DNA of 32,000 nt from Candidatus Methanoperedens sp. Lineage in GTDB: Archaea; Halobacteriota; Methanosarcinia; Methanosarcinales; Methanoperedenaceae. The translations under genes and the position numbers were made by a program. The stretch spans positions 1,216-33,215 of the forward strand of contig JAPMTX010000164.1 in NCBI GenBank assembly GCA_026552855.1, read 5' to 3'. Below the pieces are notes generated by a model. That model had not been told where the DNA came from and made no database searches. It saw only the letters and a program-made list of their open reading frames with translations. This document shows, one piece after another, positions 6,315-20,514 of this stretch (its first letter is position 1; every line of letters starts with the position of its first letter).

Positions 6315-9300
6315 ATGCAGTTGAAAAAAAATACACCCACAGTAGATGGATTAATCAAATTCAGCATTGTTTTATTACTTACAATATTGCTGGTGAGCAA
6401 TACTGCCTATGCAGCACAGGTATTGCAAGTGTCCAGCAGCAGGCACTCGCTTTTCTCTCCATGGATGAACAAAGCCAGCGATACCAGTCTAAGTGCAAAT
6501 TTCACAGCCTATGCTTTGTTCCTTAATACAAACGGCACGCCGGTTTCAGGAGCAAATATTACCTTTGAGATATACTCCCAATCTGTCAAAAAGGTAACTA
6601 AATACAATAATACTCAGCAGAATGGTCTTGCAAGCGTCCCATATGATACTATTAATGATTTTACTGCCAGCACGGATACTGATTATGGTAACTGGAGCAT
6701 CGTTGCCTATCCAACAGGCAATCCAGCATTGAAGGATAAAATAAATATGAGCATACAGGCAGGAGGAAGCGCGCTGCAGGGTTGTTCTAAGGACTACTGT
6801 CATGAGACTGCCACCAAAGATGTCGGAGGATATCCCCGCTCTCCCTATACCGATAGTTATGGACAGAGTAATACAAGAGCAGAGGCTGCACACACACAGA
6901 GCAACCATGCCAACGCAGGATGTTATTACTGTCACGTTGGCTATGCAGCAACTAAAACAGGTACTTATGGGTATACAGGTGATGTGCACAGGAACAGGAC
7001 GTGTGATTTCTGTCATGGTACCTGGACATATATTAGAGATACCGGCTCATCAGGCGGCAAAGGAATACCAAAGATGCCAAGCTGCTCAGATTGCCATCTT
7101 ATATTCAATAATAACCTCACGGACATGAACACACTCGCCAACCTGGCGGCAGGGAACAACATCTCGGTATATTCCTATAACTATGATAGGAAAGCTCCGC
7201 TCACTGCACACAATGGTACAGATTACAGCTTGATTAAATCTGTGCCATGCGTAGTATGCCATGGGCCTGCACACAACAACACAAAGCCGGATCCAAATAT
7301 AGTTAACACAAACAATGTTACAGAATACACTCAGTGTATTTCATGTCATAACTCTTATAATAGGCACAATAACAGTGTAAGCTGTACTGTGTGCCACTCA
7401 CAAGATGCACATTCCATAAAGGTCTTTGCCCAGAATGCTACTTATGTGACTGGTAAGACCAATCCGGCAAGAGGCAATTGTACCAACTGCCACCAGAACT
7501 CCACATTCCAGGATATTCTGGAGGCGCAACCCAAGGCAGGCGGTTACACGGGAAGAAATCCGCCTCAGATTCCAACGCCTCTTAACCACAGCATAGATCC
7601 TTACTCAGGTGCATTATGGAACGGCACGCAGCCAGGATACTGGAATAATAAGAGCCAGTTGAGTGCATGTAACTACTGTCATGGGTCCGTTCTCCATAAT
7701 ACTTCGGCACTTGGCAATATCAGTAAGGTAAAAGGAACAAATTTTCTGAATCAGAGCCTCATTGGAGGATCGTGGTGTGCTAACTGCCACTACAAGAACG
7801 CGCCCAACTATGCAGGAAATCAATTCAGCCCCCAACCGCCTGAAGTACTCAACTTAAACGGACTTGTGCCCTCAAATGCAAGAGACGGTACTACGTTCTA
7901 CAATCACTCAGATGCTCTCTCATCAGGCTCTGATGATGCCACATGCAAGGGATGCCATAATAATAGACTTGCCTCAGACGCAACTTCTCTTAACTTAAGT
8001 CACAATGTTGCTACAGGGTCGGAAGGCGGACGAGACTGTGTCAGTTGTCATGATAAAGGAAAGAGCATTGAAAAAGTCGATGTCAGCAAGATGAATCAGA
8101 CAGATTCAATCCACAATGTCCTGAACAATAACTCGGTTATCGTAACCCCAGGTCTCAATCCAGACAACAAGCGGTGCTGGGCATGCCACACCAATAGCTC
8201 TCTCGGTGCGGATAACGTGGTCAACGAAGCAGAACTCCCATCCAGCGGACATCCGAACAGCTATAATGTTCCCAAGAAATGTACACAGTGCCATATCCAG
8301 GGGAATTTCAGCGGGCTTGTGGTCAGCGAACACTTCTCAGGCTCAACAGATATAAGAACCAAGTTCTACGCAAACACTAACGACTCATGCGTAAACTGCC
8401 ATAACAAGACCGAAATGCTGCTTCCAAACAGCGATCCCAGTGGACCAAAATCGATATACGCGAGTGTGAGCCATTACGGCAGTAACAAGACTAATGATGT
8501 GCCTTACATATCAGGAAGCAGCGCCAACTGCTCGTACTGTCACCAGAACCTAACGAGCGCGTTCACCACAGAGATGAATGATGCATCATGGAACTCGACC
8601 ATAAGCAACCATACTGCACTTGGTACAAATCCAGCATGCATCAACTGCCATAATTCTGGAAGGATACACTTTGCTACGCTCACAAAACCAGCAGTAAGCG
8701 CCACGCTATGCGCTAACTGTCATACTAATAAAGACAAACATAATGGTTCTGTCCAGTGCAGCCAGTGCCATATGCAATCCAACAGGAGCATCCATCCAAT
8801 ACAATATTTACAACCGGATGCTACATTCAAGGTCAATAGCCCGGCTAACAAGAGCACAGCAATCAACTGTACCAATTGTCATCAGGGTGCAGGTATAACT
8901 GGGTTCAATAACGCCCCGATAATCCCTGATCCCTTGAAGCACAGCGCTAACCTCTCAAATGGCACTATCTGGGGCATGTACTGGACTTCAGAGCAGGGTT
9001 CATGTTATTACTGCCACGGTAATACGAAACACAATAATACTGCTTTAGGTCGCATCAACAATCTCACTCAGGATGCAAATAATACAAAGAACGGCGCACT
9101 CCAGACAACCACATGGTGCGCAGACTGCCATTACAGCGATGCAGCCAATACCAAATATCTTGGCAGCCAGTGGAGCCCAGTGCCTCCGACAATCACAATC
9201 GATAACACAGGCAAGAACGGATGGCAAAATCATAGCACTTACTTAAGCGGAGGATACAGGGATAGCAACTGCCAGACCTGCCATGCATCGAACGGCACCT

Positions 9301-12300
9301 ACACGTCTACCTCACTGAACTATAGCCACAGCCTGAACGAGGGAGTTGCAGGCGGTGCAAACTGTGTCGGTTGCCATAATGCTGGAGGCACAGCAGGACC
9401 TGGACGGCTTGTCAATGTTAGTGCGATGAATGACACCAATGCAATCCACAAGAACCTTAACCGCAATGCTGTAACATCTCTTTCTGCAGAGAACAAGAAA
9501 TGCTGGGCTTGCCATGGAAGCGGCAGTGAACCCGGGAGTGGTCATCCGTCCAATTACAGGACACCATACAGATGCGCGGATTGCCATATCTCCGGCGCAG
9601 GACAGAACACCAATTTCACGCCAAGTAATATACTGGAAGTCACTCAGCACTACTGGAACGGTACCAGCATCAAGACCTCAGCAGTTACATCATGCTATGA
9701 CTGCCATAATAAGAACGAAATGATGCTTGGTCTGAACCTCGATCCAGATGGTGCAGCCAGTGTATACGGTGGAGCTAATGGTGGCAGCAACAGCACAAGC
9801 CACTACGGCAAGAAGAGATCAGATTATCCTGTTCAGGGAACTAACGAATATTGCTATCAGTGCCACAGCAATCCATCAACAGCTTTCCCGTTCGTAGATG
9901 CTGCGAACAAGACCATAGCAAACCACTCAACTAACTATGCATCAAGTCCGAATTGTGCTGACTGCCATGCAACACAGGCGGGAAGGATACACAACAGTAC
10001 GCTGTATAAACCAGCATTCAGCCTGCCGAACTCAACATTCTGCCTGAACTGCCATGGAGCAGGCGGAAGTGCTGCTATAAAGAACAAGGAACAGCACAAT
10101 GGAATCCTTGATTGTACGCAGTGCCACCTGAACTCAACAAGGAGCATACATCCAGTGCGGTACCTGCAGGATGGTGGTGCAAGCTGGGATACTGCCAGGA
10201 CAAATGCAGTTAATTGTACGAATTGCCACCAGGGTGCAGGTATAGCAGGGTTTAATAACGCCCCGATAATCCCAGACACATTAAAACACAGTGCAAGCCT
10301 CTCAAACGGCACGACATGGGGCACGTACTGGACATCGGAGCAGGGCTCATGTTATTATTGTCATGGGAACACGAAGCACAATAACACAGCTCTTGGTACT
10401 ATCAACAGCTTAACTCTTGATCCGAATAACACCAGGAGTGGAGCTCTCACCACAACCACTTGGTGCGCTGATTGCCACTACAGCGACTCAGCCAATGCCA
10501 ATTATCTTGGCAGCCAGTGGAGCCCAGCGCCTCCAGCAATCACAGTCAATAACACAGGCAAGAGCGGCTGGGAGAACCATACCAGTTATATAGCCAGCGG
10601 ATACAAGGATGAAAAGTGCAGGTCATGCCATGCCCTGAACGGAGCATATGGAACAACCTCACTGAACTATTCGCACAGCCTTAATGTAGGCATAAGCGGT
10701 GGCGCTGATTGTATAAGCTGCCACTATGTGGGCAGCTCGTACCATAACATCGATACAATAGCAGCCAATGCCAGTGTCCATTCAGGTATGAATAGCAATA
10801 ACGCTACCAGCGCAGGCTTCGCAGCGATCGACGGTGCATGCTGGGCATGCCACGACACGGATGGAAACGTTACAAACAATCCGAGCAATCAGATAATGGG
10901 CGATATATACAATACACCCAAGAAATGCGACGACTGCCATCTTGCCTCAGGTACGTATTACTCACAGGCATCAGGCTGGGGTGCGCCAACTGTAAGCGAA
11001 CATTATTACAGTGCGAGCCAGATAAAAGCTGGAAACTCAGACTCGAATATAGCTTCATGCATCAACTGCCATGAGAACGTAAGCGAGATGGTACTCCGCA
11101 ATAACGATTCAGATTATGGCTCATTCGCAGGAGACGGTATCAGGCTCGCAGGCGGAAACATGAGCTTCTATCACTACGGTAAATCCAGAAGTGATCTACG
11201 CACGTGGGATTCAGGTCAGGCAGAAAATTGCAGCTACTGCCACCAGAACACAAGCACAGCGTTTGCAGCAGGTATGCTCAATCCGGCCTACAACAGCTCA
11301 ATCCAGAACCACAGCTCAACTCAAGCATCGCCAGGTTGCTACAATTCAACCTGTCATAACAGCGGCTGGATACACAACAGTACTCTTACCAGACCTGCAT
11401 TGAATCCAGACAGCGCAGCGACGTTCTGCCAGAACTGCCATACAACCAAGCAGAAACATAACGGTACTCTTGACTGCAGCAACTGCCACATCAACCAGAG
11501 CAGCACCGACACGATCCATCCAATAAAGTTCTTACAGAACTCAGGTTCATTTGATCTCATCAGAACATCAGCAGTTAACTGTACGAGCTGCCACCAGGGT
11601 GCAGGTATAAGCGGGCTTAATGCTCCAAAGATACCAGATCCAGTAAACCATTCTGTATCACCCAGTGCAGGTCAGAAATGGGGCAACTACTGGGACAATA
11701 CCTCACAGGTAACTGCATGCTATTACTGCCACCAGAACGAGATCCATAAAATCAATGCTGACCTTCTCGGCAATGTCTCAACTGTAAAAGGCTCAAATAC
11801 CTTCAATAACGCAGACCTTGCAAATTCAACATGGTGCGCGAACTGCCACTATGCTGGCGCCCAGGAATACAAAGGCATGTTCTTACCCGTACCTCCACCC
11901 GAGATAACGGATGCAAGCCTTGTAGCCAGCGATGGGACAATGTTCTTTAACCACAGCGGACTTTCGAATTTCAACGACTCCAACTGTAAGGCATGCCATG
12001 GACTTGTATTATCAGGATATTCGGAAACCTCACTTAACTTCTCGCACAGCGTAAGCGTGGGAGGCGGCGGAGATAACTGTATTGACTGCCATGGCACAAA
12101 TTACATCGGAGCATCGCCGTCGGTTACCCGGACATTCGTTAACATCTCAGCCTTCAACGAATCCATTCACCAGGACATTAACAATACCCCACCGGCTACC
12201 ATGGAGAACCTTGATTGCTGGTCTTGCCACTATAATAAGGACATGAACCGCCAGAACGTAAAGAAATGCGGCGACTGCCACAGGAAACCGAGCCAGTGGC

Positions 12301-12344
12301 ACGGTAATGCCAATATTACTACCAACTTATCAGAACTCTGGTAA
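6315..12344 (+). CDS. Giant secreted multiheme cytochrome (2009 aa, ~48 CxxCH plus 2 CX4CH by manual count)
   Basis: A GGAGAG SD lies 8 nt upstream of the ATG. The signal peptide ends ...SNTAYA/AQ. An N-terminal Ig-like domain is followed by heme motifs throughout. Four copies of a ~450-aa 12-heme module are present, the last truncated. N-x-S/T sequons are dense. Confidence 0.9.
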   Translation: MQLKKNTPTVDGLIKFSIVLLLTILLVSNTAYAAQVLQVSSSRHSLFSPWMNKASDTSLSANFTAYALFLNTNGTPVSGANITFEIYSQSVKKVTKYNNTQQNGLASVPYDTINDFTASTDTDYGNWSIVAYPTGNPALKDKINMSIQAGGSALQGCSKDYCHETATKDVGGYPRSPYTDSYGQSNTRAEAAHTQSNHANAGCYYCHVGYAATKTGTYGYTGDVHRNRTCDFCHGTWTYIRDTGSSGGKGIPKMPSCSDCHLIFNNNLTDMNTLANLAAGNNISVYSYNYDRKAPLTAHNGTDYSLIKSVPCVVCHGPAHNNTKPDPNIVNTNNVTEYTQCISCHNSYNRHNNSVSCTVCHSQDAHSIKVFAQNATYVTGKTNPARGNCTNCHQNSTFQDILEAQPKAGGYTGRNPPQIPTPLNHSIDPYSGALWNGTQPGYWNNKSQLSACNYCHGSVLHNTSALGNISKVKGTNFLNQSLIGGSWCANCHYKNAPNYAGNQFSPQPPEVLNLNGLVPSNARDGTTFYNHSDALSSGSDDATCKGCHNNRLASDATSLNLSHNVATGSEGGRDCVSCHDKGKSIEKVDVSKMNQTDSIHNVLNNNSVIVTPGLNPDNKRCWACHTNSSLGADNVVNEAELPSSGHPNSYNVPKKCTQCHIQGNFSGLVVSEHFSGSTDIRTKFYANTNDSCVNCHNKTEMLLPNSDPSGPKSIYASVSHYGSNKTNDVPYISGSSANCSYCHQNLTSAFTTEMNDASWNSTISNHTALGTNPACINCHNSGRIHFATLTKPAVSATLCANCHTNKDKHNGSVQCSQCHMQSNRSIHPIQYLQPDATFKVNSPANKSTAINCTNCHQGAGITGFNNAPIIPDPLKHSANLSNGTIWGMYWTSEQGSCYYCHGNTKHNNTALGRINNLTQDANNTKNGALQTTTWCADCHYSDAANTKYLGSQWSPVPPTITIDNTGKNGWQNHSTYLSGGYRDSNCQTCHASNGTYTSTSLNYSHSLNEGVAGGANCVGCHNAGGTAGPGRLVNVSAMNDTNAIHKNLNRNAVTSLSAENKKCWACHGSGSEPGSGHPSNYRTPYRCADCHISGAGQNTNFTPSNILEVTQHYWNGTSIKTSAVTSCYDCHNKNEMMLGLNLDPDGAASVYGGANGGSNSTSHYGKKRSDYPVQGTNEYCYQCHSNPSTAFPFVDAANKTIANHSTNYASSPNCADCHATQAGRIHNSTLYKPAFSLPNSTFCLNCHGAGGSAAIKNKEQHNGILDCTQCHLNSTRSIHPVRYLQDGGASWDTARTNAVNCTNCHQGAGIAGFNNAPIIPDTLKHSASLSNGTTWGTYWTSEQGSCYYCHGNTKHNNTALGTINSLTLDPNNTRSGALTTTTWCADCHYSDSANANYLGSQWSPAPPAITVNNTGKSGWENHTSYIASGYKDEKCRSCHALNGAYGTTSLNYSHSLNVGISGGADCISCHYVGSSYHNIDTIAANASVHSGMNSNNATSAGFAAIDGACWACHDTDGNVTNNPSNQIMGDIYNTPKKCDDCHLASGTYYSQASGWGAPTVSEHYYSASQIKAGNSDSNIASCINCHENVSEMVLRNNDSDYGSFAGDGIRLAGGNMSFYHYGKSRSDLRTWDSGQAENCSYCHQNTSTAFAAGMLNPAYNSSIQNHSSTQASPGCYNSTCHNSGWIHNSTLTRPALNPDSAATFCQNCHTTKQKHNGTLDCSNCHINQSSTDTIHPIKFLQNSGSFDLIRTSAVNCTSCHQGAGISGLNAPKIPDPVNHSVSPSAGQKWGNYWDNTSQVTACYYCHQNEIHKINADLLGNVSTVKGSNTFNNADLANSTWCANCHYAGAQEYKGMFLPVPPPEITDASLVASDGTMFFNHSGLSNFNDSNCKACHGLVLSGYSETSLNFSHSVSVGGGGDNCIDCHGTNYIGASPSVTRTFVNISAFNESIHQDINNTPPATMENLDCWSCHYNKDMNRQNVKKCGDCHRKPSQWHGNANITTNLSELW
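7479..12344. repeat. Intragenic tandem modules of ~1.35 kb (12 heme motifs each): 7479, 8868, 10215 and 11580 (truncated)
   Basis: The anchor motif NC-T-[NS]-CHQ recurs at aa 389, 852, 1301 and 1756. Modules 2 and 3 are about 83% identical at DNA level in a 60-nt spot check (8881.. vs 10225..). Confidence 0.8.
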
Positions 12345-12533: not shown

Positions 12534-13805
12534 ATGTATTATAAAAAAAATGTAATAATTGCCGTACTTGTAAACATTTTTCTTGCCGGCTCAGTACTTG
12601 GCGCAGTCCCTGCCTGGGATATGACTTTTGGAAGAACGGATGATGAATCTGCTGCCTCGGTACAGCAGACCTCAGACGACGGGTATATATTTGCAGGGAC
12701 CACGTCTACTTACGGCTGGGGTGAACGCGATGCATGGATGGTCAAAACCGATTATAAAGGAACACGGCTTTGGGATACGGCATTCGGAGGAAAATATTAC
12801 GATGCGGCAACCTCAGTGCAGCAGACCCCGGATGGCGGGTATATTGTTGCAGGGACTACGTTCACTTACGGCGCAGGTGGCTCTGATGCATGGCTGGTCA
12901 AAACTGATGCTAATGGAAATAAAGTCTGGGATAGAACATTCGGGGGAGTTGGTAACGAATCTGCCTCTTCGGTGCAGCGAACCTCAGACGACGGGTTTAT
13001 TATCGCAGGGACGACGTTCACTTACGGCGCCGGAGGTTCCGATGCCTGGCTTATCAAAACGGATTACAAAGGATTCAGGATGTGGGACAGAACATTCGGA
13101 GGAGTTGGCAACGAATCAGCCTCTTCGGTGCAGCAGACCCCGGATGGCGGGTATATTATTGCAGGGACTACGTTCACTTACGGCGCCGGAGGTTCCGATG
13201 CCTGGCTACTTAAAACGGATTCCAACGGGACCAGGCTGTGGGATAAAACCTTCGGAGGACCCGGTAATGAGTCTGCTTCTTCGGTGCTACGAACCTCAGA
13301 CGGCGGGTATATCATTGCAGGGACTACATCTTCATATGGCGCCGGAGGTTCCGATATCTGGCTTATCAAAACTGATGCTAACGGAACCAGATTCTGGGAC
13401 AGAACATTCGGAGGAACTGGCAATGATTCAGCTTCCTCGGTGCAGCAAACTTCAGACGGCGGGTATATTATTTCAGGAACTACATCTTCATATGGCGCCG
13501 GAGGTTCCGATGTCTGGCTTATCAAAACTGATCACAGGGGAAATAGGCTGTGGGATAAAACTTTTGGAGGAACTGACAATGATTCTGCAGCCCAGGTGAA
13601 GCAATCTAAAGAGGGCGGTTATGTGATTGCAGGAACTACATCTTCCTACGGTGCAGGAGGAACTGATGCCTGGCTCGTCTATGTTCTGGACGAAACAACT
13701 GCTCCACCTGCCGCAGATAATAAATCTATACCTGGATTTGATATCATAACAACCGCGGTGGGATTATTGGCTGCTGTATACATACTGGATAAATTAAAAA
13801 AATAG
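12534..13805 (+). CDS. Surface protein: signal peptide, seven 52-aa beta-propeller-type repeats and a PGF-CTERM archaeosortase sorting signal
   Basis: There are seven repeats of FGGxGNESASSVQQTSDGGYIIAGTTxSYGAGGSDAWLIKTDxNGxxxWDxT. The C-terminus is PGFDIITTAVGLLAAVYILDKLKK (PGF, then a TM helix, then a basic tail). Confidence 0.85.
   Translation: MYYKKNVIIAVLVNIFLAGSVLGAVPAWDMTFGRTDDESAASVQQTSDDGYIFAGTTSTYGWGERDAWMVKTDYKGTRLWDTAFGGKYYDAATSVQQTPDGGYIVAGTTFTYGAGGSDAWLVKTDANGNKVWDRTFGGVGNESASSVQRTSDDGFIIAGTTFTYGAGGSDAWLIKTDYKGFRMWDRTFGGVGNESASSVQQTPDGGYIIAGTTFTYGAGGSDAWLLKTDSNGTRLWDKTFGGPGNESASSVLRTSDGGYIIAGTTSSYGAGGSDIWLIKTDANGTRFWDRTFGGTGNDSASSVQQTSDGGYIISGTTSSYGAGGSDVWLIKTDHRGNRLWDKTFGGTDNDSAAQVKQSKEGGYVIAGTTSSYGAGGTDAWLVYVLDETTAPPAADNKSIPGFDIITTAVGLLAAVYILDKLKK
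12627..13698. repeat. Coding tandem repeat, 7 x 156 bp
   Basis: The period is exactly 156 bp. For example, the 38-mer acgttcacttacggcgccggaggttccgatgcctggct occurs at 13014..13051 and again at 13170..13207. Confidence 0.85.
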
Positions 13806-13831: not shown

Positions 13832-14731
13832 ATGACAAGCGTACCCAGCAAAAAAAGACTTCCAGTAAGCGTCGGTGTCTGTGTCTATAATGAAGAAAAA
13901 AACATAGTCCGGCTTCTGCATTCCCTTCTCGCGCAGAAGACAAATATTGCGGAAATCAGGGAAATAATAATTGTATCCTCAGGTTCTACCGACAAGACAG
14001 ATGCAATAGCTTCTGATTTCATTAAAAGGTACAGCAATATTAAGCTATTGACCCAGGAGAAGCGGGAAGGTAAATCTTCGGCTCTTAATCTTTTCTTTGA
14101 GAATGCAACCCAGGATATTTTAGTGTCCGTGAATGGTGATATCCTGCTTCAGGAGGATACGATTGAAAAGCTTGTATTGCCTTTTTGTGATCCGGAAGTA
14201 GGTATGACGGGAGGTCATACCATACCTGTGAATGATAAAAATCATTTCCTTGGCTTCACAGTCCATCTGCTCTGGAATCTCCACCATCTCATCTCTTTGA
14301 AAAATCCTAAACTTGGTGAGCTCATCGCTCTACGAAACATGGTCAGAATTCCGGGCAATATTGCTTTCGATGAAGCCTGGCTGGAAGCATCTATTAAAAG
14401 CAGGGGTCTTAAACTGATTTATGTCCCCGACGCGGTATTATTCAACAAAGGTCCTGACACAGTATCAGATTTTCTGAAACAGCGAAGGAGGAATTTTGCA
14501 GGCAACCTGTACATTACAAAAAAAACCGGGCATAAACTTTCCACCATGAACTCACTTAATGTTTTGATCCTGACATTGAAAGGACTTAAATTTAATAGCA
14601 AGGTAATAGTGTATACATTTGGCGCTATTCTCCTGGAAATGCTGGGTAGAGCCCTGGGTTTCTATGATTTCTATGTTAAAAAAAGAAACCCGGTTATATG
14701 GGAAGTTATAAAAACTACCAAGGAGATGTAA
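13832..14731 (+). CDS. Family 2 glycosyltransferase (GT-A fold)
   Basis: The N-terminal VGVCVYNEEKNIVRLLHSLLAQ...IIVSSGSTDKTD pattern is typical of Glycos_transf_2. The gene starts 26 nt after the propeller gene. Confidence 0.8.
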   Translation: MTSVPSKKRLPVSVGVCVYNEEKNIVRLLHSLLAQKTNIAEIREIIIVSSGSTDKTDAIASDFIKRYSNIKLLTQEKREGKSSALNLFFENATQDILVSVNGDILLQEDTIEKLVLPFCDPEVGMTGGHTIPVNDKNHFLGFTVHLLWNLHHLISLKNPKLGELIALRNMVRIPGNIAFDEAWLEASIKSRGLKLIYVPDAVLFNKGPDTVSDFLKQRRRNFAGNLYITKKTGHKLSTMNSLNVLILTLKGLKFNSKVIVYTFGAILLEMLGRALGFYDFYVKKRNPVIWEVIKTTKEM

Positions 14732-14742
14732 AAGCAGTACAG

Positions 14743-16806
14743 TTAATCATCAGGCTTGGTTTTAGAAACAGACGCCCTGAATACGGGAACAGAACCGGTA
14801 TTATCTTTTTTCCATATCAGAAATTGTTGCTGTATTCCAGCCTTTTTACCATCAGCGTCTGAGTACAGTGATTCAGGGACCTCAAATTCTGACCGGATTA
14901 TGTTTTTTGTATTTTTAAGTTTTATTTCTCCAATACTTATATTCATGTTATTCCTGACCGTATCAAAAATCAGGGTATCATAGCCAACATCCTGTAATGT
15001 AACTTCTAACTTTGAATTATAACCGGGCTCAGGAATAGTTAAGATCATGCCGCCATATCCTGAGTTCTGGATAAGTCTTGATTTGTTTTGCGCCTGGCTC
15101 CATGCCTTCCCGTATATCCATCCGTTATTACTTTTAGTCCAGTTGTCCGCAGGTTCGCCTATGAATATTGTTGGTTTTTCAGTCCTGGTAAATGTATTAT
15201 TTGTATGTCGTTTGAAAACATAAGAGGATATATTATACTTGTCTGTAAATTTCTCCTTGTAGTCATAATAATTTGCCAGGTACTCATTTAAAAAACCATC
15301 TGTATACCAGGAAAAAGATATGCTTGCTGTGTAAAGCACATCTTTAGGATCAATTTTTGTGTACTTATCCACCAGTACTATGTAGGTAGCATTTTGCTCG
15401 CTCCCGGCATCCAGGGGGAATGTTCCCAGTGCATTATTTTTATACCCCAGCCAGTATAGATAAATGCTTTCGGGTGAACTTCCCATGTAGAACGCACCCT
15501 TGATGCCGCTATAAGCTTCAAGAACAGGATAGTGGGCATTCGTAATGAAAAACTCCCCCCCGGCGCGGAGGTCTTTATTGTCTGTAATATAATAAGGCGT
15601 GTTATTGTTTGAAATATATTTTCCTACGTCTTTTAACGAATCTATATACCACCAGTCGTCTACGAGGGTGGCTGAATAAACAGTGCCATTAGCCACGCTG
15701 CTGTAATCAAAAGACAATCCTGCCACCAGAAATATCGTAATTACCGCGGCTATCCCGGTTTGATAGCTTCTTATTTTATAGATCATCTTATCCATGGAAT
15801 AACCGAAAAATATGCATACCGACGGCGTCAGGATCAAAAGGTAGCGCGCGAAATACGTCCCTGAAAAAACAGTAAAGATAACTATGTTCAACAGGAAAGC
15901 CAGCACATAGAAGGCGCTCAACCGGTGGTGCTCATGAAGAGCTTTTTCGATTAAGTACCCGAGACCTAACATGGAGATAACAAAAGATATGAACCCTATA
16001 TGGGTACTTACGGTTATCAGCGCCCAGTTAAAAGCGATTTTCTGTCCCACGCTCCACCCGTAAGACGTTTTGAGAATGGTCCACGGGAAATAGATGCTCT
16101 GTCCCAGTATCAGTGATATCAATAATATTACAGCGGTGTAGGGTGCTGTAAATTGCACTATCTCCAGGGGCTTTTTAGTTCTTTTTATCATCAAATGGAT
16201 AATGGTTATCAACAGGAATACGCCGGCGTATATCTTGGTAAACGTTGCAAGACCAAACATTATTCCTGCTGTTTGCAGCAGGTATGATTTCCCGGACGAC
16301 ATGTACTTTGAGTAAAAGTAAATACCCGCTGTTATGAAAAGGACTGTAAGCATGTCCAGTGTCGCAAACCTCGAATATGCTATAAAGTAAGGGTTAAAAG
16401 CAAAAATTAGCGAGGCAATAATACCTGTAGATGGACTGTATTCCGAGCCCAGTTTATATATAAAATAAGTGATTGCCACAGATATTAATACTGTTACAAC
16501 CCGGAAAAAAGCCTCGTCGTTCATAAAATAAAAATACTTATAGAGAAACGACATGAGCATAAAATAAACAGGAGGGTGGGCTGTCCCAAGCATCCTCATG
16601 CTCTGCCAGTCGTACCCGTTCGCTACGATATCCTTTACGATTTTCACGTAAATGGCTTCGTCAAAAACGAACGCATGTTCATCTATTCTGATAATGCGCA
16701 CTAAAAAAGCCGATACCAGCACTATTAAAATAATGATTTCAGAGAGCTTGGAAGATTTACCTGAATGCTCTTTATCTCTTATATGCCTTATTTTTCTTGA
16801 TTGCAT
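14743..16806 (-). CDS. GT-C fold membrane glycosyltransferase, PMT_2/ArnT (GT39/83)-like, with a ~300-aa C-terminal soluble domain
   Basis: The protein has many TM helices. The first-loop FDEAIYV motif, a later HPPVY, and an FTK-containing helix match the PMT_2/ArnT pattern. Confidence 0.7.
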   Translation of the reverse strand: MQSRKIRHIRDKEHSGKSSKLSEIIILIVLVSAFLVRIIRIDEHAFVFDEAIYVKIVKDIVANGYDWQSMRMLGTAHPPVYFMLMSFLYKYFYFMNDEAFFRVVTVLISVAITYFIYKLGSEYSPSTGIIASLIFAFNPYFIAYSRFATLDMLTVLFITAGIYFYSKYMSSGKSYLLQTAGIMFGLATFTKIYAGVFLLITIIHLMIKRTKKPLEIVQFTAPYTAVILLISLILGQSIYFPWTILKTSYGWSVGQKIAFNWALITVSTHIGFISFVISMLGLGYLIEKALHEHHRLSAFYVLAFLLNIVIFTVFSGTYFARYLLILTPSVCIFFGYSMDKMIYKIRSYQTGIAAVITIFLVAGLSFDYSSVANGTVYSATLVDDWWYIDSLKDVGKYISNNNTPYYITDNKDLRAGGEFFITNAHYPVLEAYSGIKGAFYMGSSPESIYLYWLGYKNNALGTFPLDAGSEQNATYIVLVDKYTKIDPKDVLYTASISFSWYTDGFLNEYLANYYDYKEKFTDKYNISSYVFKRHTNNTFTRTEKPTIFIGEPADNWTKSNNGWIYGKAWSQAQNKSRLIQNSGYGGMILTIPEPGYNSKLEVTLQDVGYDTLIFDTVRNNMNISIGEIKLKNTKNIIRSEFEVPESLYSDADGKKAGIQQQFLIWKKDNTGSVPVFRASVSKTKPDD

Positions 16807-17788
16807 CCAATATCTCTATTATACGTACAGATTCTTTAAGCTTATTAAAATTATTTAGCCCTTCTTTTATATGATTTATGAAAGTTGTATCCTGCTCCAG
16901 GTATGACCTGTTTAAAGCCCACATAGGATTTCTTAAGTCCGTATTCTCCGGATAAATGGTATGGGTCCCTTTTCCTGCCCTGTATTCATTTATCTTTCCA
17001 CTGTATATGGCAGGGGTAAGAACGCCCCTGTCCCCTACAACCCTGAGGGTCTTGAGCATCTCGGTATGGAGATACTCAGATAGAGGTGCCCACAGTGCCT
17101 GGAGGTGACCGATAACCCCGTTCTCAAACCTGACCGAGATATCCGCTATATTCTCAACAGGCAGGTCATCATAAGTACCGCTAAACCCGTATGCCTCCTC
17201 GATGCTGCTGTCCGCAAGCCATGAGCTTATGTCGATAAGGTGGCATAAGCCGTCCATGAGCACGCCGCCCCCTTTCTTCGGGTCTAAATAAAAGGATTTG
17301 TTCTCCCGCAAATAAGCCAATTCAGCCAGGTAATACCCGTTTATTGTAATAATCCTGCCGATATGCCCTTTTTTCAACAATTTTTTTGCCAATTTCATCT
17401 GCGGCATGTACCTCAGGTTATAGCCGGTTTCAACGATAAGACCGGCGTTCCCGGCTGTTTTTTCGATACTTAGCGCCTCGTCTGCCGTCATGCACAGCGG
17501 CTTTTCCACAAATATGTGTTTTTTATGGTTCAGGCAATCCATTACCAGGGCATAATGCGTATGGGGAGGTGTCAGTATGAACACGGCATCCACGAAGCCA
17601 AGAAATTCACTGTAGTCCGGGAACCTCCTGTTCCCTTCAATACCGAACCGCTCACCGATGTTCTCCAGCGCTTTCGCATCGGTATCAGAGATAAAAACCG
17701 CCTTTATATCCGGGTTCTTGACCAGGATTGGCAGATGTACGCTCTTTGCTATGTTACCACAGCCGATAATTCCTATGTTGAGTTTCAT
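16772..17788 (-). CDS. Gfo/Idh/MocA family NAD(P)-dependent oxidoreductase (likely sugar-modifying)
   Basis: MKLNIGIIGCGNIAKSVHLPIL is a Rossmann motif, and the EKP motif (FVEKPL) is present. The gene overlaps the downstream gene by 35 nt. Confidence 0.85.
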   Translation of the reverse strand: MKLNIGIIGCGNIAKSVHLPILVKNPDIKAVFISDTDAKALENIGERFGIEGNRRFPDYSEFLGFVDAVFILTPPHTHYALVMDCLNHKKHIFVEKPLCMTADEALSIEKTAGNAGLIVETGYNLRYMPQMKLAKKLLKKGHIGRIITINGYYLAELAYLRENKSFYLDPKKGGGVLMDGLCHLIDISSWLADSSIEEAYGFSGTYDDLPVENIADISVRFENGVIGHLQALWAPLSEYLHTEMLKTLRVVGDRGVLTPAIYSGKINEYRAGKGTHTIYPENTDLRNPMWALNRSYLEQDTTFINHIKEGLNNFNKLKESVRIIEILDAIKKNKAYKR

Positions 17789-17795
17789 TTCTCAC

Positions 17796-18770
17796 CTATA
17801 TGTCGATTTTAGTCGTTCTCCTGAGTAATACTGAGAAGGCGTCACGATATGATATCTTCTGCTTCAGCACTTCCATATCAACAGCTCCGAGGGCGTCGCC
17901 CGCAAATGCAATGGAGTTCCCCAGCATCTCAAGACGCTTCCCGATGGATGCGATATAAAAACCAAACCTTGTAGTGGTGTAAGGCAGACGAGCCGTTATC
18001 TTATACGGATCAGGATTATCGAGCAGCCCTGCCTCGCCGGTTAAATGTAGATCCCTTTTACCGAGGACCTTCTGCGCCAGCTCAAGATGGGACACTTTCT
18101 TTATTCCCATATAGGCTGAAGCTACAAGGTCTGTAGCTATAACATCATCCCCCGCGATGAAAACATTATCCTGCCTGGGCAGCCCGTCTACAGGTCCTCT
18201 CCCTTCCAGGCCCGTGTTTCCCTCGATTATGGTAAGATGCGGTCTGTAGAACTGTACCAGGTCTACAAGGATGCTGTCAAGGAATGGATGAAGGCTTTCC
18301 TTATCTTTCCTTGTGATCATGCCAAAGAGGTTTTTGGTCCCAAGACTGACTTTTGTAAATACATGTGTTTTCAATCTTGCCATGTTTATCAGGCACTCGC
18401 TCTCGTACAGAGTAAGGGGTACGTTAAGCATGCCTATTATCCTGCCGTTCACGTCCACTTTCACAGCATCATCCTTTGACAGGTTTACAACCCCGGCGCC
18501 TTCAAGTTCCGTGTATCCGAGCCTCTTAAAAGCGATGTCTGCGCGCAGGGCTGTGGCGTCGGATTCTACGACCTTTATCAGGGCATCAGGATTGATCTCC
18601 AGTATGCGATCTACTATCTTTTTTACAGACTCTACGCTCGTCGTTATCGGACAGGATGCGATGGTGCAGAGGTTTACCTTGATGACGTAATTATCGACTT
18701 TCGGGATATTTTTAAAAGCTGCTGCCAGCACTTCTTCTGAGTTTCTCCCGATGGTTACTGATGAGTTCAT
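17796..18770 (-). CDS. DUF362 domain protein
   Basis: The pattern IKVNL...T..., LKTH, KNLFG, and EG.GP.DG.P...IAGDD.IA.D matches the DUF362 family as I remember it. Confidence 0.6.
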   Translation of the reverse strand: MNSSVTIGRNSEEVLAAAFKNIPKVDNYVIKVNLCTIASCPITTSVESVKKIVDRILEINPDALIKVVESDATALRADIAFKRLGYTELEGAGVVNLSKDDAVKVDVNGRIIGMLNVPLTLYESECLINMARLKTHVFTKVSLGTKNLFGMITRKDKESLHPFLDSILVDLVQFYRPHLTIIEGNTGLEGRGPVDGLPRQDNVFIAGDDVIATDLVASAYMGIKKVSHLELAQKVLGKRDLHLTGEAGLLDNPDPYKITARLPYTTTRFGFYIASIGKRLEMLGNSIAFAGDALGAVDMEVLKQKISYRDAFSVLLRRTTKIDI

Positions 18771-19039
18771 ATGTTGCCATTCCTTATCCAGATAAGAATA
18801 GGTATACCTGTAAGGACTAACAGGACTATTCCGGCGTTAATAAGGGTGATCCTGACGCCCAGCAGCGAGTTCAGGAAAAAGATGCTTAATGTCGAAAGGG
18901 ATATCGACAGGGCGATCGATAAAGCCGCAAGCTCCAGGATATCCTTTTTCTCTTTCTCGAAGAGCAAAAGGCACCATGCCGCGCCGGGAACCAGGAACAG
19001 GAAAATGCCGCCCAGGACAGCCTGCAGTATCTCTATCAT
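18767..19039 (-). CDS. Small integral membrane protein (3 predicted TM helices)
   Basis: The sequence is hydrophobic. It has 4-nt overlaps with both neighbours (19036..19039 and 18767..18770), which suggests translational coupling. Confidence 0.55.
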   Translation of the reverse strand: MIEILQAVLGGIFLFLVPGAAWCLLLFEKEKKDILELAALSIALSISLSTLSIFFLNSLLGVRITLINAGIVLLVLTGIPILIWIRNGNI

Positions 19040-20514
19040 CTTACCTCGTAGATAAACGTCTTGTTCTCACTGTGTACCAGTTTCAAGGAACTCATACTGA
19101 TTTCTTCCTTGCTGTATATATAATCAGGTTTTAGTTCTGCCAGTATTTTTTCTCTTGTCCCGGTATTCCCTCTGAAAAAGTCCAGGCTCTTATTAACACT
19201 ATCTTCACTTGATCCCAGCCTTCCCCGTATCAGGGATACTACGTTCCTGTCTGCGATTACCCCGATAGCTGCTGATGCTCTTGGCATCGCCAGGATAACA
19301 GCATCCTGCGGAGTATTATCTTTTAACCATAAGATCGGCTCATATTCCCCCGGCTCTATCACCAGGGGTATATCCTCTTTATAAGTGAAGATGGAATTGA
19401 CCTGGAAAACCAATATTATAATAACGAGCGCAGCCGCTAATTTTTGGATTTTGATAGACCGGTATACGTGATACAGTCCGATTCCAGCCAGTATCAATAG
19501 TATTTCAGATATATACACAACCACCCGCTCGTACGGAGCAAAAAAAGCGTATCCCAGGTAAATGTAAGCCAGTATAATAAAGAGCAGCGCGTCCACAGAC
19601 AGCGGAAGTATTTTCGCCTCATTGTCCATCATTGCCTTAAAGAAGCCAAAGATTGAGAACCCGAAGGCGATTACCCCCATGTATGCCGGGAATTGCATTA
19701 CGACCTCGAACCTGTTCATTGGAATAGAGCGCGGGAATGTAAGGATTTTAAGTATCTTTGCAATATAGCCTGCAACAGAACCCTCAAAAGGCACGACCAC
19801 AAGTAACAGGACAAGTAATAAGAAGATAGAACCGAGCAATTTGTTCTTATTCTGTCTGATTATACCGGGGTTAAATATTATGTAGAGGGCTAACATCGGG
19901 ATAAATATGACCGCTGAGGCTGGATGAGCCAGTGCTGTGGCTGCAAAAACCAACAGAAATACCGGGATATATCTATTTGAGATCTGGGATTTCAGGAAAA
20001 GATAAAAGATCAGGGGTAAGAAAGCCATTCCAAAGGATAATGCCACCAGGAACCACGGACCGAGAAAAAATACATCGCTCTTAAGAGTCATTACAAAAAT
20101 AGCAGACAGTAATGCAGGAAGGTCGTTTTTTGTAAGGTACCTCACCAGGATAAAAGTATTGAAAGACAGTATGAAAACGAAAACAGCAGGGAGGATCAGC
20201 CCTGTATCCAGAGGGGAGATCCCTGTGAAAAGGCTTGAGAGCGCAATAAAAAGGTTATAATTCAGTTCCCACATGGCAGAATTGGTATTCGCAACGCCAT
20301 GGGCTTCCTCATTGAAATTAACGTAATACGGGTTCCCGGGGAGAAAGGGATTATACTCCACCAGCTTTTTTTCCTTCAGGATCTCCTGGGCGATCTTTAT
20401 ATTATCCCATTCGTCCGCATGGAACGGGAAGCGGTAGTTGAGATGAATGCTGCCTGTTGTGTAGATGCTCAGTGAGATTAATATCAGTATGCAAACTAAC
20501 AATTTATTTTTCAA
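19036..20514 (-). CDS. Polytopic membrane protein, possibly a GT-C/STT3-like glycosyltransferase (function uncertain)
   Basis: There are at least 10 hydrophobic segments, a first-loop HADEWD, and a C-terminal ILWLKDNTPQDAVILA segment that resembles the region preceding WWDYG in STT3/AglB. No WWDYG motif is present. Confidence 0.6.
   Translation of the reverse strand: MKNKLLVCILILISLSIYTTGSIHLNYRFPFHADEWDNIKIAQEILKEKKLVEYNPFLPGNPYYVNFNEEAHGVANTNSAMWELNYNLFIALSSLFTGISPLDTGLILPAVFVFILSFNTFILVRYLTKNDLPALLSAIFVMTLKSDVFFLGPWFLVALSFGMAFLPLIFYLFLKSQISNRYIPVFLLVFAATALAHPASAVIFIPMLALYIIFNPGIIRQNKNKLLGSIFLLLVLLLVVVPFEGSVAGYIAKILKILTFPRSIPMNRFEVVMQFPAYMGVIAFGFSIFGFFKAMMDNEAKILPLSVDALLFIILAYIYLGYAFFAPYERVVVYISEILLILAGIGLYHVYRSIKIQKLAAALVIIILVFQVNSIFTYKEDIPLVIEPGEYEPILWLKDNTPQDAVILAMPRASAAIGVIADRNVVSLIRGRLGSSEDSVNKSLDFFRGNTGTREKILAELKPDYIYSKEEISMSSLKLVHSENKTFIYEVR

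What the first reader, a model, noticed from the sequence alone, without database searches (positions are those of the whole stretch)
6315..12344. A 2009-aa cytochrome with about 50 heme sites built from four tandem copies of a ~450-aa, 12-heme module
By manual count the protein has 48 CxxCH and 2 CX4CH motifs. The anchor motif NC-T-[NS]-CHQ recurs at residues 389, 852, 1301 and 1756, giving periods of 463, 449 and 455 aa. Each full period holds 12 heme motifs in conserved order, and the last copy is truncated to 7. Modules 2 and 3 remain about 83% identical at DNA level in a 60-nt spot check. One more copy of the same module forms the middle of the 1070-aa protein (24189..27401). A portable 12-heme cassette concatenated head-to-tail would give a very long heme chain in a single polypeptide, potentially spanning an S-layer or pseudoperiplasm. 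The protein has a signal peptide but no TM helix, no PGF-CTERM and no recognisable S-layer domain, so its attachment is unexplained.
Basis: seen in the sequence. Interest (0 to 1): 0.75.

Follow-up and report, generated by a model that had tools for sequence, protein, structure and literature searches.

The report
Modular 50-heme cytochrome of Methanoperedens
This gene from a methane-oxidising archaeon (Candidatus Methanoperedens) really does encode a secreted 2009-residue protein with 50 heme sites built from repeated 12-heme units, but such giant cytochromes are already known in this group, so only the repeat unit and its swapping between genomes look new.

Summary
ORF 6315..12344 (+) encodes 2009 aa with 48 CxxCH and 2 Cx4CH motifs. 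All 100 Cys lie in heme motifs. It contains three full ~450-aa, 12-heme modules (42-55% aa identity), a C-terminal 6-heme half module and a 4-heme module fragment near the N-terminus.

The protein is identical to an NCBI hypothetical protein from a Candidatus Methanoperedens MAG. An HMM of the module found 80 full copies in 112 homologs, and 76 of these have exactly 12 heme motifs. Copy number runs from 0 to 5. The published 113-heme record protein of Methanoperedens Mn-2 carries at least five copies, fused to an S-layer domain and a C-terminal TM helix.

Each module here is closer to a module in another genome (66-87%) than to its neighbours. The closest ortholog lacks module 2. This points to old, in-register cassette gain, loss and replacement, not an assembly artefact.

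I read it as a glycosylated, unanchored, extracellular bis-His heme wire for extracellular electron transfer. The fold could not be confirmed (AF2 pLDDT 55).

Giant MHCs with more than 50 hemes were already reported in this family (Leu 2020), so this is a new member of a known kind. I found no paper describing the cassette grammar.

The parts
6315..12344 (+). Gene for the 2009-aa, 50-heme modular multiheme cytochrome c. It equals the NCBI protein 'hypothetical protein OIN66_15615, Candidatus Methanoperedens sp.'
6315..6416 (+). Sec-type signal peptide (residues 1-34, hydrophobic core 7-25, ...AYA|AQ). It is the only TM-like segment in the protein.
   Evidence: hydropathy; the cleavage site is inferred from the sequence
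6417..6782 (+). Heme-free N-terminal domain (residues 35-156), probably an Ig-like beta-sandwich.
   Evidence: weak Big_1 (E 4e-4) and MG2/MG4 hits. Homologs carry CarboxypepD_reg/MG2 domains at this position.
6783..7496 (+). N-terminal 8-heme region (residues 157-394). It starts with the Cx4CH motif at residue 157. Its last 4 hemes (residues 309-394, nt 7239-7496) match module HMM positions 361-447.
7497..8885 (+). Module 1 (residues 395-857), 12 hemes. 83% identical to module 1 of ortholog P0002.
8886..10232 (+). Module 2 (residues 858-1306), 12 hemes. Absent from the closest ortholog P0002. 69% identical to L003 module 2, 66% to a module in M. nitroreducens Mnv1, 70% to a P0005 module.
10233..11597 (+). 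Module 3 (residues 1307-1761), 12 hemes including the Cx4CH at residue 1675. 86-87% identical to modules in P0002 and L003.
11598..12341 (+). C-terminal half module (residues 1762-2009, HMM positions 1-243), 6 hemes. Most family members end with such a half module.
12207..12341 (+). Near-invariant C-terminal di-heme tail: NLDCWSCHYNKDMNRQNVKKCGDCHRKPSQWHGNANITTNLSELW. It is shared by giant and mid-size MHCs in the window, L002, L003 and L008. Candidate docking element.
8849..8909 (+). Conserved 61-nt DNA stretch across the M1|M2 junction. Copies also lie at 10196-10256 and 11561-11621 (77-82% identity). Candidate site for in-register unequal recombination.
4512..6221 (+). Upstream 569-aa, 12-heme cytochrome with a mosaic origin. 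Gene nt 57-1429 is 78.5% identical to the 5' part of the 1070-aa gene. Gene nt 1429-1708 is 71% identical to the 3' end of the giant gene. The junction lies at a CIDCH heme motif.
12534..13805 (+). Downstream 423-aa secreted protein with seven ~47-aa beta-propeller repeats and a PGF-CTERM-like end (PGFDIITTAVGLLAAVYILDKLKK). A homolog lies downstream of the giant MHC in L003 (84%, with a 660-aa MHC gene in between) and L008 (68%). Candidate surface anchor or partner.
24189..27401 (-). 1070-aa, 26-heme paralog holding about two thirds of a module (residues 438-771) and a half module (residues 781-1023).

Best explanation
The gene encodes a secreted, heavily N-glycosylated, unanchored multiheme cytochrome c of Candidatus Methanoperedens. 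It serves extracellular electron transfer during methane oxidation, acting as one long intramolecular chain of about 50 low-spin, mostly bis-His hemes.

**Architecture.** Signal peptide, Ig-like domain, 8 hemes, three 12-heme cassettes, one 6-heme half cassette, and a conserved di-heme tail.

**The cassette.** It is the evolutionary building block of a whole family of Methanoperedenaceae and Archaeoglobi-type giant cytochromes. Proteins differ by whole cassettes. These differences most likely arise by in-register recombination at the conserved NCTNCHQ|GAG junction, and they set the length of the wire.

**Location.** In anchored relatives the cassette array sits N-terminal to an S-layer domain and a C-terminal membrane helix, and so lies outside the S-layer. 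By analogy, this free form probably works beyond or at the S-layer. It would receive electrons from S-layer cytochromes and pass them to minerals, cytochrome filaments or partner cells.

**Shown:** the motifs, the modules, family membership, cassette indels, the absence of anchor domains, sequon enrichment and synteny.

**Inferred:** heme ligation, linear geometry, localisation, docking partners and the recombination mechanism.
For: **Heme sites and ligands.**
- 50 heme motifs use all 100 Cys. There are 100 His.
- Across 80 module copies, 24 Cys, the 12 motif His and 11 further His are at least 95% conserved. One Met is 86% conserved. That fits six-coordinate electron-transfer hemes with no obvious open catalytic site.
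- There are 37 residues per heme.

**Family similarity.**
- Pfam MtrC/MtrF domain II/IV: 175.8 bits. Cytochrome c7: 168 bits.
- Sub-threshold similarity to DmsE/MtrA-type decahemes: NCBIfam 103 bits against a cutoff of 192; PDB profile hits to MtrA and MtrF.

**Topology and glycosylation.**
- Signal peptide only, with no other TM-like segment.
- 91 N-x-S/T sequons against 44 +/- 5.6 in shuffles, with GT2 and PMT-like genes nearby.

**Family and copy number.**
- Exact match to a Methanoperedens MAG protein. 112 homologs, nearly all from Methanoperedens.
- The module HMM finds 0 to 5 full copies per protein. Heme number rises by 12.2 per module-equivalent, r = 0.83.

**Cassette exchange.**
- W_M1 is 83% identical to P0002 m1. 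W_M3 is 86-87% identical to P0002 m2 and L003 M3. W_M2 is 66-70% identical to modules elsewhere and is missing from P0002. Inside this protein the modules are only 42-55% identical.
- The junction DNA is among the best-conserved stretches between modules.

**Anchored relatives.** The L004 protein (113 CxxCH) has at least 5 modules, then an S-layer domain (PF07752, 39 bits), then a C-terminal TM-like segment. P0006, P0016 and P0029-31 have the same order.

**Context.**
- The window is a cytochrome island. It includes a homolog of the Archaeoglobus veneficus cytochrome nanowire subunit (PDB 8E5G, E 2e-28).
- Extracellular MHC-mediated electron transfer has been shown experimentally for Methanoperedens (PMC10542353; PMC10874420).
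Against: - No structural support. The AF2 model of module 2 from a 33-sequence alignment reached only pLDDT 55.5 and pTM 0.44. Foldseek against the PDB gave nothing meaningful.
- No solved homolog was found by sequence.
- Linear heme packing and the length estimate are therefore assumptions.
- There are no expression or proteomic data for this gene.
- There is no anchor, so the location (outside the S-layer or in the pseudoperiplasm) is inferred only from paralog architecture.
- Only 11 conserved non-motif His were found for 12 hemes per module, so one heme may be His/Met-ligated or ligated from elsewhere.
- The recombination mechanism rests on comparing a few orthologs, not on observed events.
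Confidence: 0.6

Rival explanations
1. It is a conduit inside the cell envelope. The protein sits in the pseudoperiplasm and bridges the membrane menaquinol:cytochrome c oxidoreductases and the S-layer, or crosses the S-layer itself.
For: - The protein is secreted and unanchored.
- It shares module sequence with S-layer-domain cytochromes.
- Small 6-heme cytochromes that could feed it lie in the same window.
Against: - It has no S-layer domain and no heme-free gap longer than 150 aa.
- Paralogs that do have the S-layer domain place the module array on the side away from the membrane anchor.
- From memory, 50 hemes at roughly 0.8-1 nm each would far exceed a pseudoperiplasm of a few tens of nm, unless the chain is folded back.
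Confidence: 0.2
2. It is an electron store (a capacitor). The many hemes buffer electrons when external acceptors are scarce, and do not conduct over distance.
For: - Very high heme density, 37 residues per heme.
- Copy number scales the heme count by 12.2 per module, which would scale storage capacity just as well as length.
Against: - In anchored relatives the same modules are fused in line with an S-layer conduit, which suggests through-transfer.
- Storage and conduction are not mutually exclusive.
Confidence: 0.12
3. It is a subunit of a polymeric cytochrome filament of the OmcS, OmcE or OmcZ type, or of the archaeal ECN type.
For: ECN-like tetraheme genes are in the same window. The conserved C-terminal tail could mediate head-to-tail contacts.
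Against: - No sequence similarity to any solved filament subunit.
- Known filament subunits have 4-8 hemes.
- The tail is also present on much shorter paralogs.
Confidence: 0.05
4. It is an assembly artefact. Mis-joined repeats expanded or collapsed the module array, or the ORF is a pseudogene.
For: The sequence comes from a short-read MAG contig. The gene contains repeats.
Against: - The repeats are only 51-60% identical at nucleotide level, and the best 300 nt reach 78%. That is too diverged to mis-assemble.
- The ORF is uninterrupted.
- An independent genome (L003) has the same three-module layout.
- Each module has its own ortholog elsewhere.
Confidence: 0.02

Closest known systems
Giant multiheme cytochromes of Methanoperedenaceae (Leu et al. 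2020, mBio, PMC7327174), including the 113-heme MHC of Mn-2
   Same: - Same genus and same protein family.
- The L004 ORF from isolate MnB_21 has exactly 113 CxxCH motifs and at least 5 copies of the same 12-heme module.
[quoted passage not shown]
   Different: - The 113-heme protein ends in an S-layer domain and a TM helix. This protein ends in a half module and a conserved soluble tail.
- I did not find the cassette structure described in that paper or in any other paper searched.
[quoted passage not shown]
   Same: - They share part of the module: HMM positions 1 to about 310 before the S-layer domain, and positions 150-236 after it.
- Same proposed role in extracellular electron transfer.
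- The same MAG also encodes one (P0091, OIN66_09630).
   Different: This protein has no S-layer domain, no C-terminal TM helix and no peptidase-M6-like N-terminus.
Geobacter c7-polymer cytochromes such as dodecaheme GSU1996 (from memory: four triheme c7-type domains in one chain, about 12 nm)
   Same: The same design idea: a heme wire made by concatenating a repeated heme domain within one polypeptide. The Pfam Cytochrome_C7 family matches at 168 bits.
   Different: - The repeat unit here is 12 hemes in about 450 aa, not 3 hemes in about 75 aa.
- hhalign finds only short di-heme motifs recurring within the module.
- The NCBIfam nanowire_3heme model does not match the giant protein.
- It is archaeal and glycosylated.
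MtrC/OmcA/MtrF outer-surface decahemes and MtrA/DmsE periplasmic decahemes of Shewanella
   Same: - Pfam MtrC/MtrF domain II/IV: 175.8 bits, 10 stretches.
- DmsE-family NCBIfam: 103 bits over M2 residues 36-276.
- Weak PDB profile hits to MtrA (chain 6r2q_A) and MtrF.
   Different: - The NCBIfam score is below its cutoff of 192.
- There is no beta-barrel domain I/III, no lipoprotein signal and no porin partner.
- The fold comparison was uninformative.
Polymeric cytochrome nanowires (OmcS, OmcE, OmcZ; archaeal ECNs, PDB 8E5F and 8E5G)
   Same: Both give a long chain of bis-His hemes with little protein around it, used outside the cell. ECN-like genes are neighbours in this window.
   Different: Length here comes from covalent concatenation within one chain, not from polymerisation of 4-8-heme subunits. 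There is no sequence similarity to those subunits.

Membership tests
Multiheme cytochrome c (secreted, covalent heme) | Multiple CxxCH or CxnCH motifs far above chance | tested here: met
   48 CxxCH plus 2 Cx4CH. Shuffles of the sequence give a mean of 0.2.
Multiheme cytochrome c (secreted, covalent heme) | Export signal, so that heme attachment can occur outside the cytoplasm | tested here: met
   N-terminal hydrophobic segment at residues 7-25 followed by AYA|AQ. No dedicated signal-peptide predictor was available.
Methanoperedenaceae giant MHC family with the 12-heme module (defined here by HMM) | At least one full match to the 447-position module HMM, with 12 heme motifs | tested here: met
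   Three full matches (698-794 bits), one half match and one fragment. The HMM was built from these three modules, so these scores match by construction. The independent evidence is that it finds 77 full copies in other proteins (80 including these three), and 76 of the 80 have 12 motifs.
Methanoperedenaceae giant MHC family with the 12-heme module (defined here by HMM) | Taxonomic restriction to Methanoperedens and related archaea | tested here: met
   Exact NCBI match to a Ca. Methanoperedens MAG protein. The genome scan hit Methanoperedens species, Ca. Pyrohabitans jungbluthii and a Methanocellales MAG. Ferroglobus placidus Ferp_0672 is also a homolog.
ANME MHC-A/B (S-layer conduit cytochromes) | S-layer domain (PF07752 / DUF1608) embedded in the cytochrome | tested here: not met
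   No PF07752 hit. No heme-free gap longer than 150 aa.
ANME MHC-A/B (S-layer conduit cytochromes) | C-terminal transmembrane helix | tested here: not met
   Hydropathy finds only the N-terminal segment. The C-terminus is the polar sequence ...NANITTNLSELW.
ANME MHC-C | Large N-terminal pectin-lyase-type domain | tested here: not met
   No pectin-lyase or beta-helix Pfam hit. The N-terminal 157 aa give only weak Ig-like hits.
MtrC/OmcA family decaheme cytochromes | Pentaheme domain II/IV | tested here: met
   PF22113 at 175.8 bits (cutoff 30), 10 stretches. This is domain-level similarity only.
MtrC/OmcA family decaheme cytochromes | Four-domain fold with beta-barrel domains I/III, and a staggered-cross heme arrangement | tested here: inconclusive
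   The AF2 model reached pLDDT 55.5. The only Foldseek hit was MtrC 6qyc at E 7.7 and TM 0.09.
DmsE/MtrA family decaheme cytochromes | Score above the NCBIfam TIGR03508 cutoff | tested here: not met
   103.1 bits against a cutoff of 192.2.
Cytochrome nanowire subunits (OmcS/E/Z, ECN) | Sequence homology to a solved filament subunit | tested here: not met
   phmmer of the whole protein against all PDB chains gave no hit at E <= 0.01. The module profile search lists no OmcS, OmcE, OmcZ or ECN chain among its hits.
PGF-CTERM / archaeosortase A substrates | C-terminal PGF motif, hydrophobic helix and basic tail | tested here: not met
   Absent from the giant protein. Present, just below the Pfam cutoff (17.2 against 18.8 bits), in the next gene, 12534..13805.

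The most novel reading that the evidence does not exclude
The ~450-aa, 12-heme cassette is a recombination-competent length unit for single-polypeptide heme wires.

- In-register crossover at the conserved NCTNCHQ|GAG junction would add, delete or swap cassettes between paralogs and strains. That would tune the wire from about 25 to more than 110 hemes.
- Free arrays such as this one would plug in through their near-invariant di-heme C-terminal tail. The socket would be S-layer cytochromes or the PGF-CTERM propeller encoded downstream in the conserved cluster.
- The result would be a modular, exchangeable extracellular antenna tens of nanometres long.
Probability: 0.3. Interest if true: 0.6.

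Novelty: new member of a known kind. Interest (0 to 1): 0.38.

Why it matters
Methanoperedens removes methane by passing electrons to nitrate, metal oxides or electrodes. How electrons leave the cell is still unclear.

If giant cytochromes are built from a countable 12-heme cassette, three things follow:
- There is a simple rule for annotating and comparing these otherwise unalignable proteins.
- The 113-heme record protein is explained as the same cassette repeated.
- Wire length could be an evolvable trait.

The cassette also gives a tractable target of about 450 aa for heme-aware structure prediction or expression. The protein itself, however, is one more example of a class described in 2020, and its function remains inferred.

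Tried and rejected
1. **AF2 on module 2.** A 33-sequence module alignment gave pLDDT 55.5 and pTM 0.44. That is too low to read heme packing.
3. **Sequence searches against the PDB.** phmmer of the whole protein found no hit. The module profile gave only weak generic multiheme hits: Otr 1sp3 at E 2e-7, plus MtrA and MtrF.
4. **Is the module a duplicated 6-heme half?** hhalign of the two halves found only ~40-aa di-heme motif similarity, so I do not claim this.
5. **Locus search with the module alignment.** The search for related loci failed because no stretch was conserved enough. I repeated it with the whole protein.
6. **Recent tandem duplication.** Rejected. The modules are 42-55% identical to each other but 66-87% identical to modules in other genomes.
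7. **Assembly artefact.** Rejected for the same reason, and because of the L003 ortholog.
8. **Promoter and terminator scan.** Counts were at shuffle level, and the sigma-70 model does not apply to archaea.
9. **Literature.** Four full-text searches, plus reading of the matching passages in six papers on Methanoperedens, ANME or multiheme cytochromes, found no description of this 12-heme module. The library does not cover subscription journals.

Full report
**1. What is in the sequence**

ORF 6315..12344 (+) is uninterrupted and encodes 2009 aa.
- It has 48 CxxCH and 2 Cx4CH motifs (residues 157 and 1675). All 100 Cys lie in these motifs, and there are exactly 100 His.
- Shuffled versions of the sequence contain 0.2 CxxCH on average.
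- Self-identity peaks sharply at an offset of 449 aa: 15.2% against 6.7 +/- 0.9%.

Slices cut at the anchors align end to end:
- M1(395-857) vs M2(858-1306): 40%, E 1e-94
- M2 vs M3(1307-1761): 50%, E 2e-147
- M1 vs M3: 37%, E 3e-89
- The C-terminal 248 aa align to the first half of a module: 38%, E 1e-37 to 1e-47

Residues 309-394 match the last 87 positions of the module. The layout is therefore: signal peptide, a heme-free domain of about 120 aa, 8 hemes, three modules of 12 hemes, and 6 hemes.

Codon-aligned nucleotide identity is 60% for M2/M3 and 51-54% for the other pairs. The best 300-nt stretch is 78%.

**2. Where it comes from, and how common it is**

The protein is identical to 'hypothetical protein OIN66_15615 [Candidatus Methanoperedens sp.]' on a 33-kb MAG contig.

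The word-indexed search returned 112 homologs of 1100-3350 aa, nearly all from Methanoperedens. It also returned Ferroglobus placidus Ferp_0672 and a few hits labelled as bacterial.

An HMM built from M1-M3 (447 positions) matches nearly all of them.
- 80 matches are full length, and 76 of those have exactly 12 heme motifs.
- In the 80-copy alignment, all 24 motif Cys, the 12 motif His and 11 further His are at least 95% conserved. One Met is 86% conserved.

A profile search of 1.84 billion representative proteins found 988 family members at E <= 1e-3 and 256 at E <= 1e-30.

Among 239 retrieved proteins, the number of full modules is:

| Full modules | Proteins |
|---|---|
| 0 (many are fragments) | 151 |
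| 1 | 61 |
| 2 | 16 |
| 3 | 8 |
| 4 | 3 |

Heme count rises by 12.2 per module-equivalent, r = 0.83.

The species-representative genome scan found module-bearing genes in several genomes:
- M. nitroreducens Mnv1, and isolates MnB_21, FeB_1 and HGW-1, among others
- Ca. Pyrohabitans jungbluthii: 3294 aa, 72 hemes, 4 full modules
- a Methanocellales MAG

The MnB_21 locus (L004) holds a 5599-aa ORF with exactly 113 CxxCH motifs and at least five full modules. [quoted passage not shown] 2020 called the largest known. [quoted passage not shown] A 50-heme cytochrome in this genus is therefore expected.

**3. The cassettes are old and are exchanged as units**

Each module of this protein is closer to a module in another genome than to its neighbours:

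| Module | Closest relatives elsewhere |
|---|---|
| M1 | 83% to module 1 of P0002; 82% to P0013 |
| M3 | 86% to module 2 of P0002; 87% to module 3 of the L003 ortholog |
| C-terminal half module | 83% in P0002, L003 and L008 |
| M2 | 69% to L003 module 2; 66% to the single full module of the M. nitroreducens Mnv1 ortholog (L008); 70% to a P0005 module |

- M2 has no counterpart in P0002, the closest ortholog, which goes straight from the M1-type module to the M3-type module.
- L003 has a different module at position 1, only 44% identical to M1.
- Orthologous loci therefore differ by insertion, deletion or replacement of whole cassettes, in register.

The DNA across the module junction forms a three-copy repeat family of 61 nt at 77-82% identity (8849-8909, 10196-10256, 11561-11621). 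It ranks among the most similar 60-nt windows in every pairwise comparison. That makes it a plausible site for in-register recombination, but this is inference.

A second sign of shuffling is the upstream 569-aa cytochrome (4512..6221). Its first 1429 nt are 78.5% identical to the 5' part of the 1070-aa gene. Its last 280 nt are 71% identical to the 3' end of the giant gene. The switch occurs at a CIDCH heme motif.

These results rule out both an assembly artefact and a recent tandem duplication.

**4. What the protein looks like and where it probably sits**

- The only TM-like segment is the N-terminal signal, residues 7-25 followed by AYA|AQ.
- Residues 35-156 give weak Ig-like hits (Big_1, MG2). 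Homologs carry CarboxypepD_reg or MG2 beta-sandwich domains at this position.
- There is no S-layer domain, no PGF-CTERM and no heme-free gap longer than 150 aa.
- There are 91 N-x-S/T sequons against 44 +/- 5.6 expected. GT2 and PMT-like glycosyltransferase genes follow the cluster. This fits a heavily glycosylated archaeal surface or extracellular protein.
- The mature chain is about 212 kDa, or about 243 kDa with 50 hemes, with 37 residues per heme.

Many family members do carry an anchor. In P0006, P0016, P0029-31, P0040, P0091 and the 113-heme L004 protein, the order is: module array, partial module, a heme-free gap of about 205-215 aa, a short di-heme segment, then a C-terminal TM-like segment. 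The gap matches PF07752 (S-layer) in L004 at 39 bits, and PF07752 is precomputed for the others. This is the ANME MHC-A/B architecture, which has been proposed to carry electrons through the S-layer (PMC9012536).

[quoted passage not shown] I infer that the cassette array is an extracellular extension, and that the free form studied here works at or beyond the S-layer. It is unlikely to span the S-layer itself.

**5. Leads on attachment**

- *Conserved tail.* The last 45 residues (NLDCWSCHYNKDMNRQNVKKCGDCHRKPSQWHGNANITTNLSELW) are almost invariant in the giant proteins of the window, L002, L003 and L008, and in P0012 and P0013. The upstream mid-size cytochromes of the same loci carry a close variant ending in NWSLIW or NWSKLW. 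This is far higher conservation than in the rest of these proteins, so the tail is a candidate docking surface.
- *Downstream propeller gene.* The next gene (12534..13805) encodes a secreted protein with seven ~47-aa repeats and a PGF-CTERM-like end. The PGF-CTERM Pfam score is 17.2 bits against a cutoff of 18.8.
- *Conserved synteny.* The gene order is conserved with L003 (propeller 84% identical) and with M. nitroreducens Mnv1, L008 (68%). The order is: FN3-type cytochrome, giant cytochrome, propeller, GT2, PMT-like, GFO/IDH oxidoreductase, DUF362. L003 has one extra 660-aa cytochrome gene between the giant gene and the propeller. All three genomes are from one genus, so this synteny is weak evidence of function.
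- *An S-layer cytochrome in the same MAG.* OIN66_09630 (P0091) is encoded elsewhere in this genome.

**6. Structure attempts**

- AF2 on M2 with a 33-sequence module alignment gave pLDDT 55.5 and pTM 0.44. Only residues 160-240 exceeded 70.
- By sequence, the whole protein hits no PDB chain. The module profile hits the octaheme Otr (1sp3, E 2e-7), chain 6r2q_A (E 6e-6; MtrA of the MtrCAB complex from memory, though the file names it differently) and MtrF (3.6e-5), all weakly.
- Pfam gives MtrC/MtrF domain II/IV (175.8 bits) and cytochrome c7 (168 bits).
- NCBIfam gives DmsE-family decaheme at 103 bits, below its cutoff of 192.
- hhalign between the two halves of the module finds only ~40-aa di-heme motifs.

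The module belongs to no solved family, and its heme geometry is unknown. From memory, per-heme rises in linear wires are about 0.8 nm for OmcS, 0.8 nm for MtrA and 1.0 nm for GSU1996. That would give about 40-50 nm for 50 hemes if the chain were extended. This is an estimate only.

**7. Context**

The window is a cytochrome island.
- Two 6-heme paralogs lie at 1509..2090 and 2186..2782.
- A 12-heme protein lies at 21950..22954.
- The 26-heme, 1070-aa paralog lies at 24189..27401.
- Five small cytochromes share an N-terminus of the form signal peptide plus (L/V)(F/L)(A/S)G(Q/G)H. One of them (2897..4174) matches PDB 8E5G at E 2.3e-28. 8E5G is the Archaeoglobus veneficus extracellular cytochrome filament.

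Extracellular, cytochrome-mediated electron transfer by Methanoperedens has experimental support (PMC10542353; PMC10874420).

**8. Verdict**

- The 'portable cassette' interpretation is supported, and it extends to a whole family, including the record 113-heme protein.
- The envelope-spanning idea is not favoured.
- The fold, localisation and partners remain inferred.
- Giant cytochromes with more than 50 hemes are already documented in this family, so this is a new member of a known kind.
- The cassette grammar, the cassette exchange between orthologs and the conserved tail are modest new descriptive points. I could not find them in the literature searched.

Noticed in passing
window 45..1049 (-), 2897..4174 (-), 21074..21754 (-), 22951..23733 (-), 23741..24184 (-): Five small cytochromes (2-5 heme motifs) share an N-terminus of the form signal peptide plus (L/V)(F/L)(A/S)G(Q/G)H(T/S). 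The 425-aa one matches PDB 8E5G chain A at E 2.3e-28 over residues 2-97. 8E5G is the Archaeoglobus veneficus extracellular cytochrome nanowire. Methanoperedens may therefore make ECN-type filaments from several paralogous subunits encoded next to the giant cytochrome.
   Followed up: partly
window 4512..6221 (+): This 569-aa, 12-heme cytochrome is a mosaic. Its 5' 1.4 kb is 78.5% identical to the 1070-aa gene (27348..25994). Its 3' 280 nt is 71% identical to the end of the giant gene (12066..12342). The junction lies at a CIDCH heme motif.
   Followed up: yes
window 12534..13805 (+); L003 18072..19034; L008 9727..10928: A secreted protein with seven ~47-aa beta-propeller repeats and a PGF-CTERM-like tail. 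It lies downstream of the giant cytochrome in three Methanoperedens genomes (directly in the window; after an extra 660-aa cytochrome gene in L003). It has no heme motifs and no Cys.
   Followed up: partly
window 12207..12341; the same tail in L002, L003, L008, P0012 and P0013: A 45-aa C-terminal di-heme tail (…KCGDCHRKPSQWHGNANITTNLSELW) is almost invariant across proteins whose other parts are 35-85% identical. It occurs on both the giant and the upstream mid-size cytochrome of each locus.
   Followed up: partly
L004 2177..18973 (+) (Ca. Methanoperedens isolate MnB_21): A 5599-aa ORF with exactly 113 CxxCH motifs, apparently the published record-holder. It consists of an MG2/Big_1 N-terminal domain, at least five copies of the same 12-heme module plus partial copies, an S-layer domain and a C-terminal TM-like segment.
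   Followed up: partly
L001 7068..9878 (contig carrying homolog P0005): ResB and CcsA-type (System II) cytochrome c biogenesis genes and a DsbH-like thioredoxin lie directly upstream of a 2189-aa family member. This differs from the Ccm system usually discussed for ANME archaea.
   Followed up: no
window 28311..30482 (-) and 27727..28032 (+): A 723-aa B12-binding radical SAM protein with a C-terminal PqqD-like domain. Its best NCBIfam hits are RiPP-maturation C-methyltransferases, all below cutoff. It lies convergent with a 101-aa Cys-rich ORF that ends …CTVCGCEIMCTTSSKSPIVCCDEVMYIF.
   Followed up: no
window 31287..31976 (-): This ORF matches the C-terminal domain of methyl-coenzyme M reductase alpha (PF02249, E 2e-53). 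It lies at the window edge, next to the radical SAM gene.
   Followed up: no
window 13832..20514: A block of glycosylation and membrane genes lies between the two cytochrome clusters: GT2, a PMT-like protein with 7 TM-like segments, a GFO/IDH/MocA oxidoreductase, DUF362 and a protein with 11 TM-like segments. The block as far as DUF362 is syntenic in L003 and L008 (the L008 locus ends just inside the last gene), except that GT2 gave no match in L008. It fits the twofold sequon enrichment of the cytochromes.
   Followed up: no
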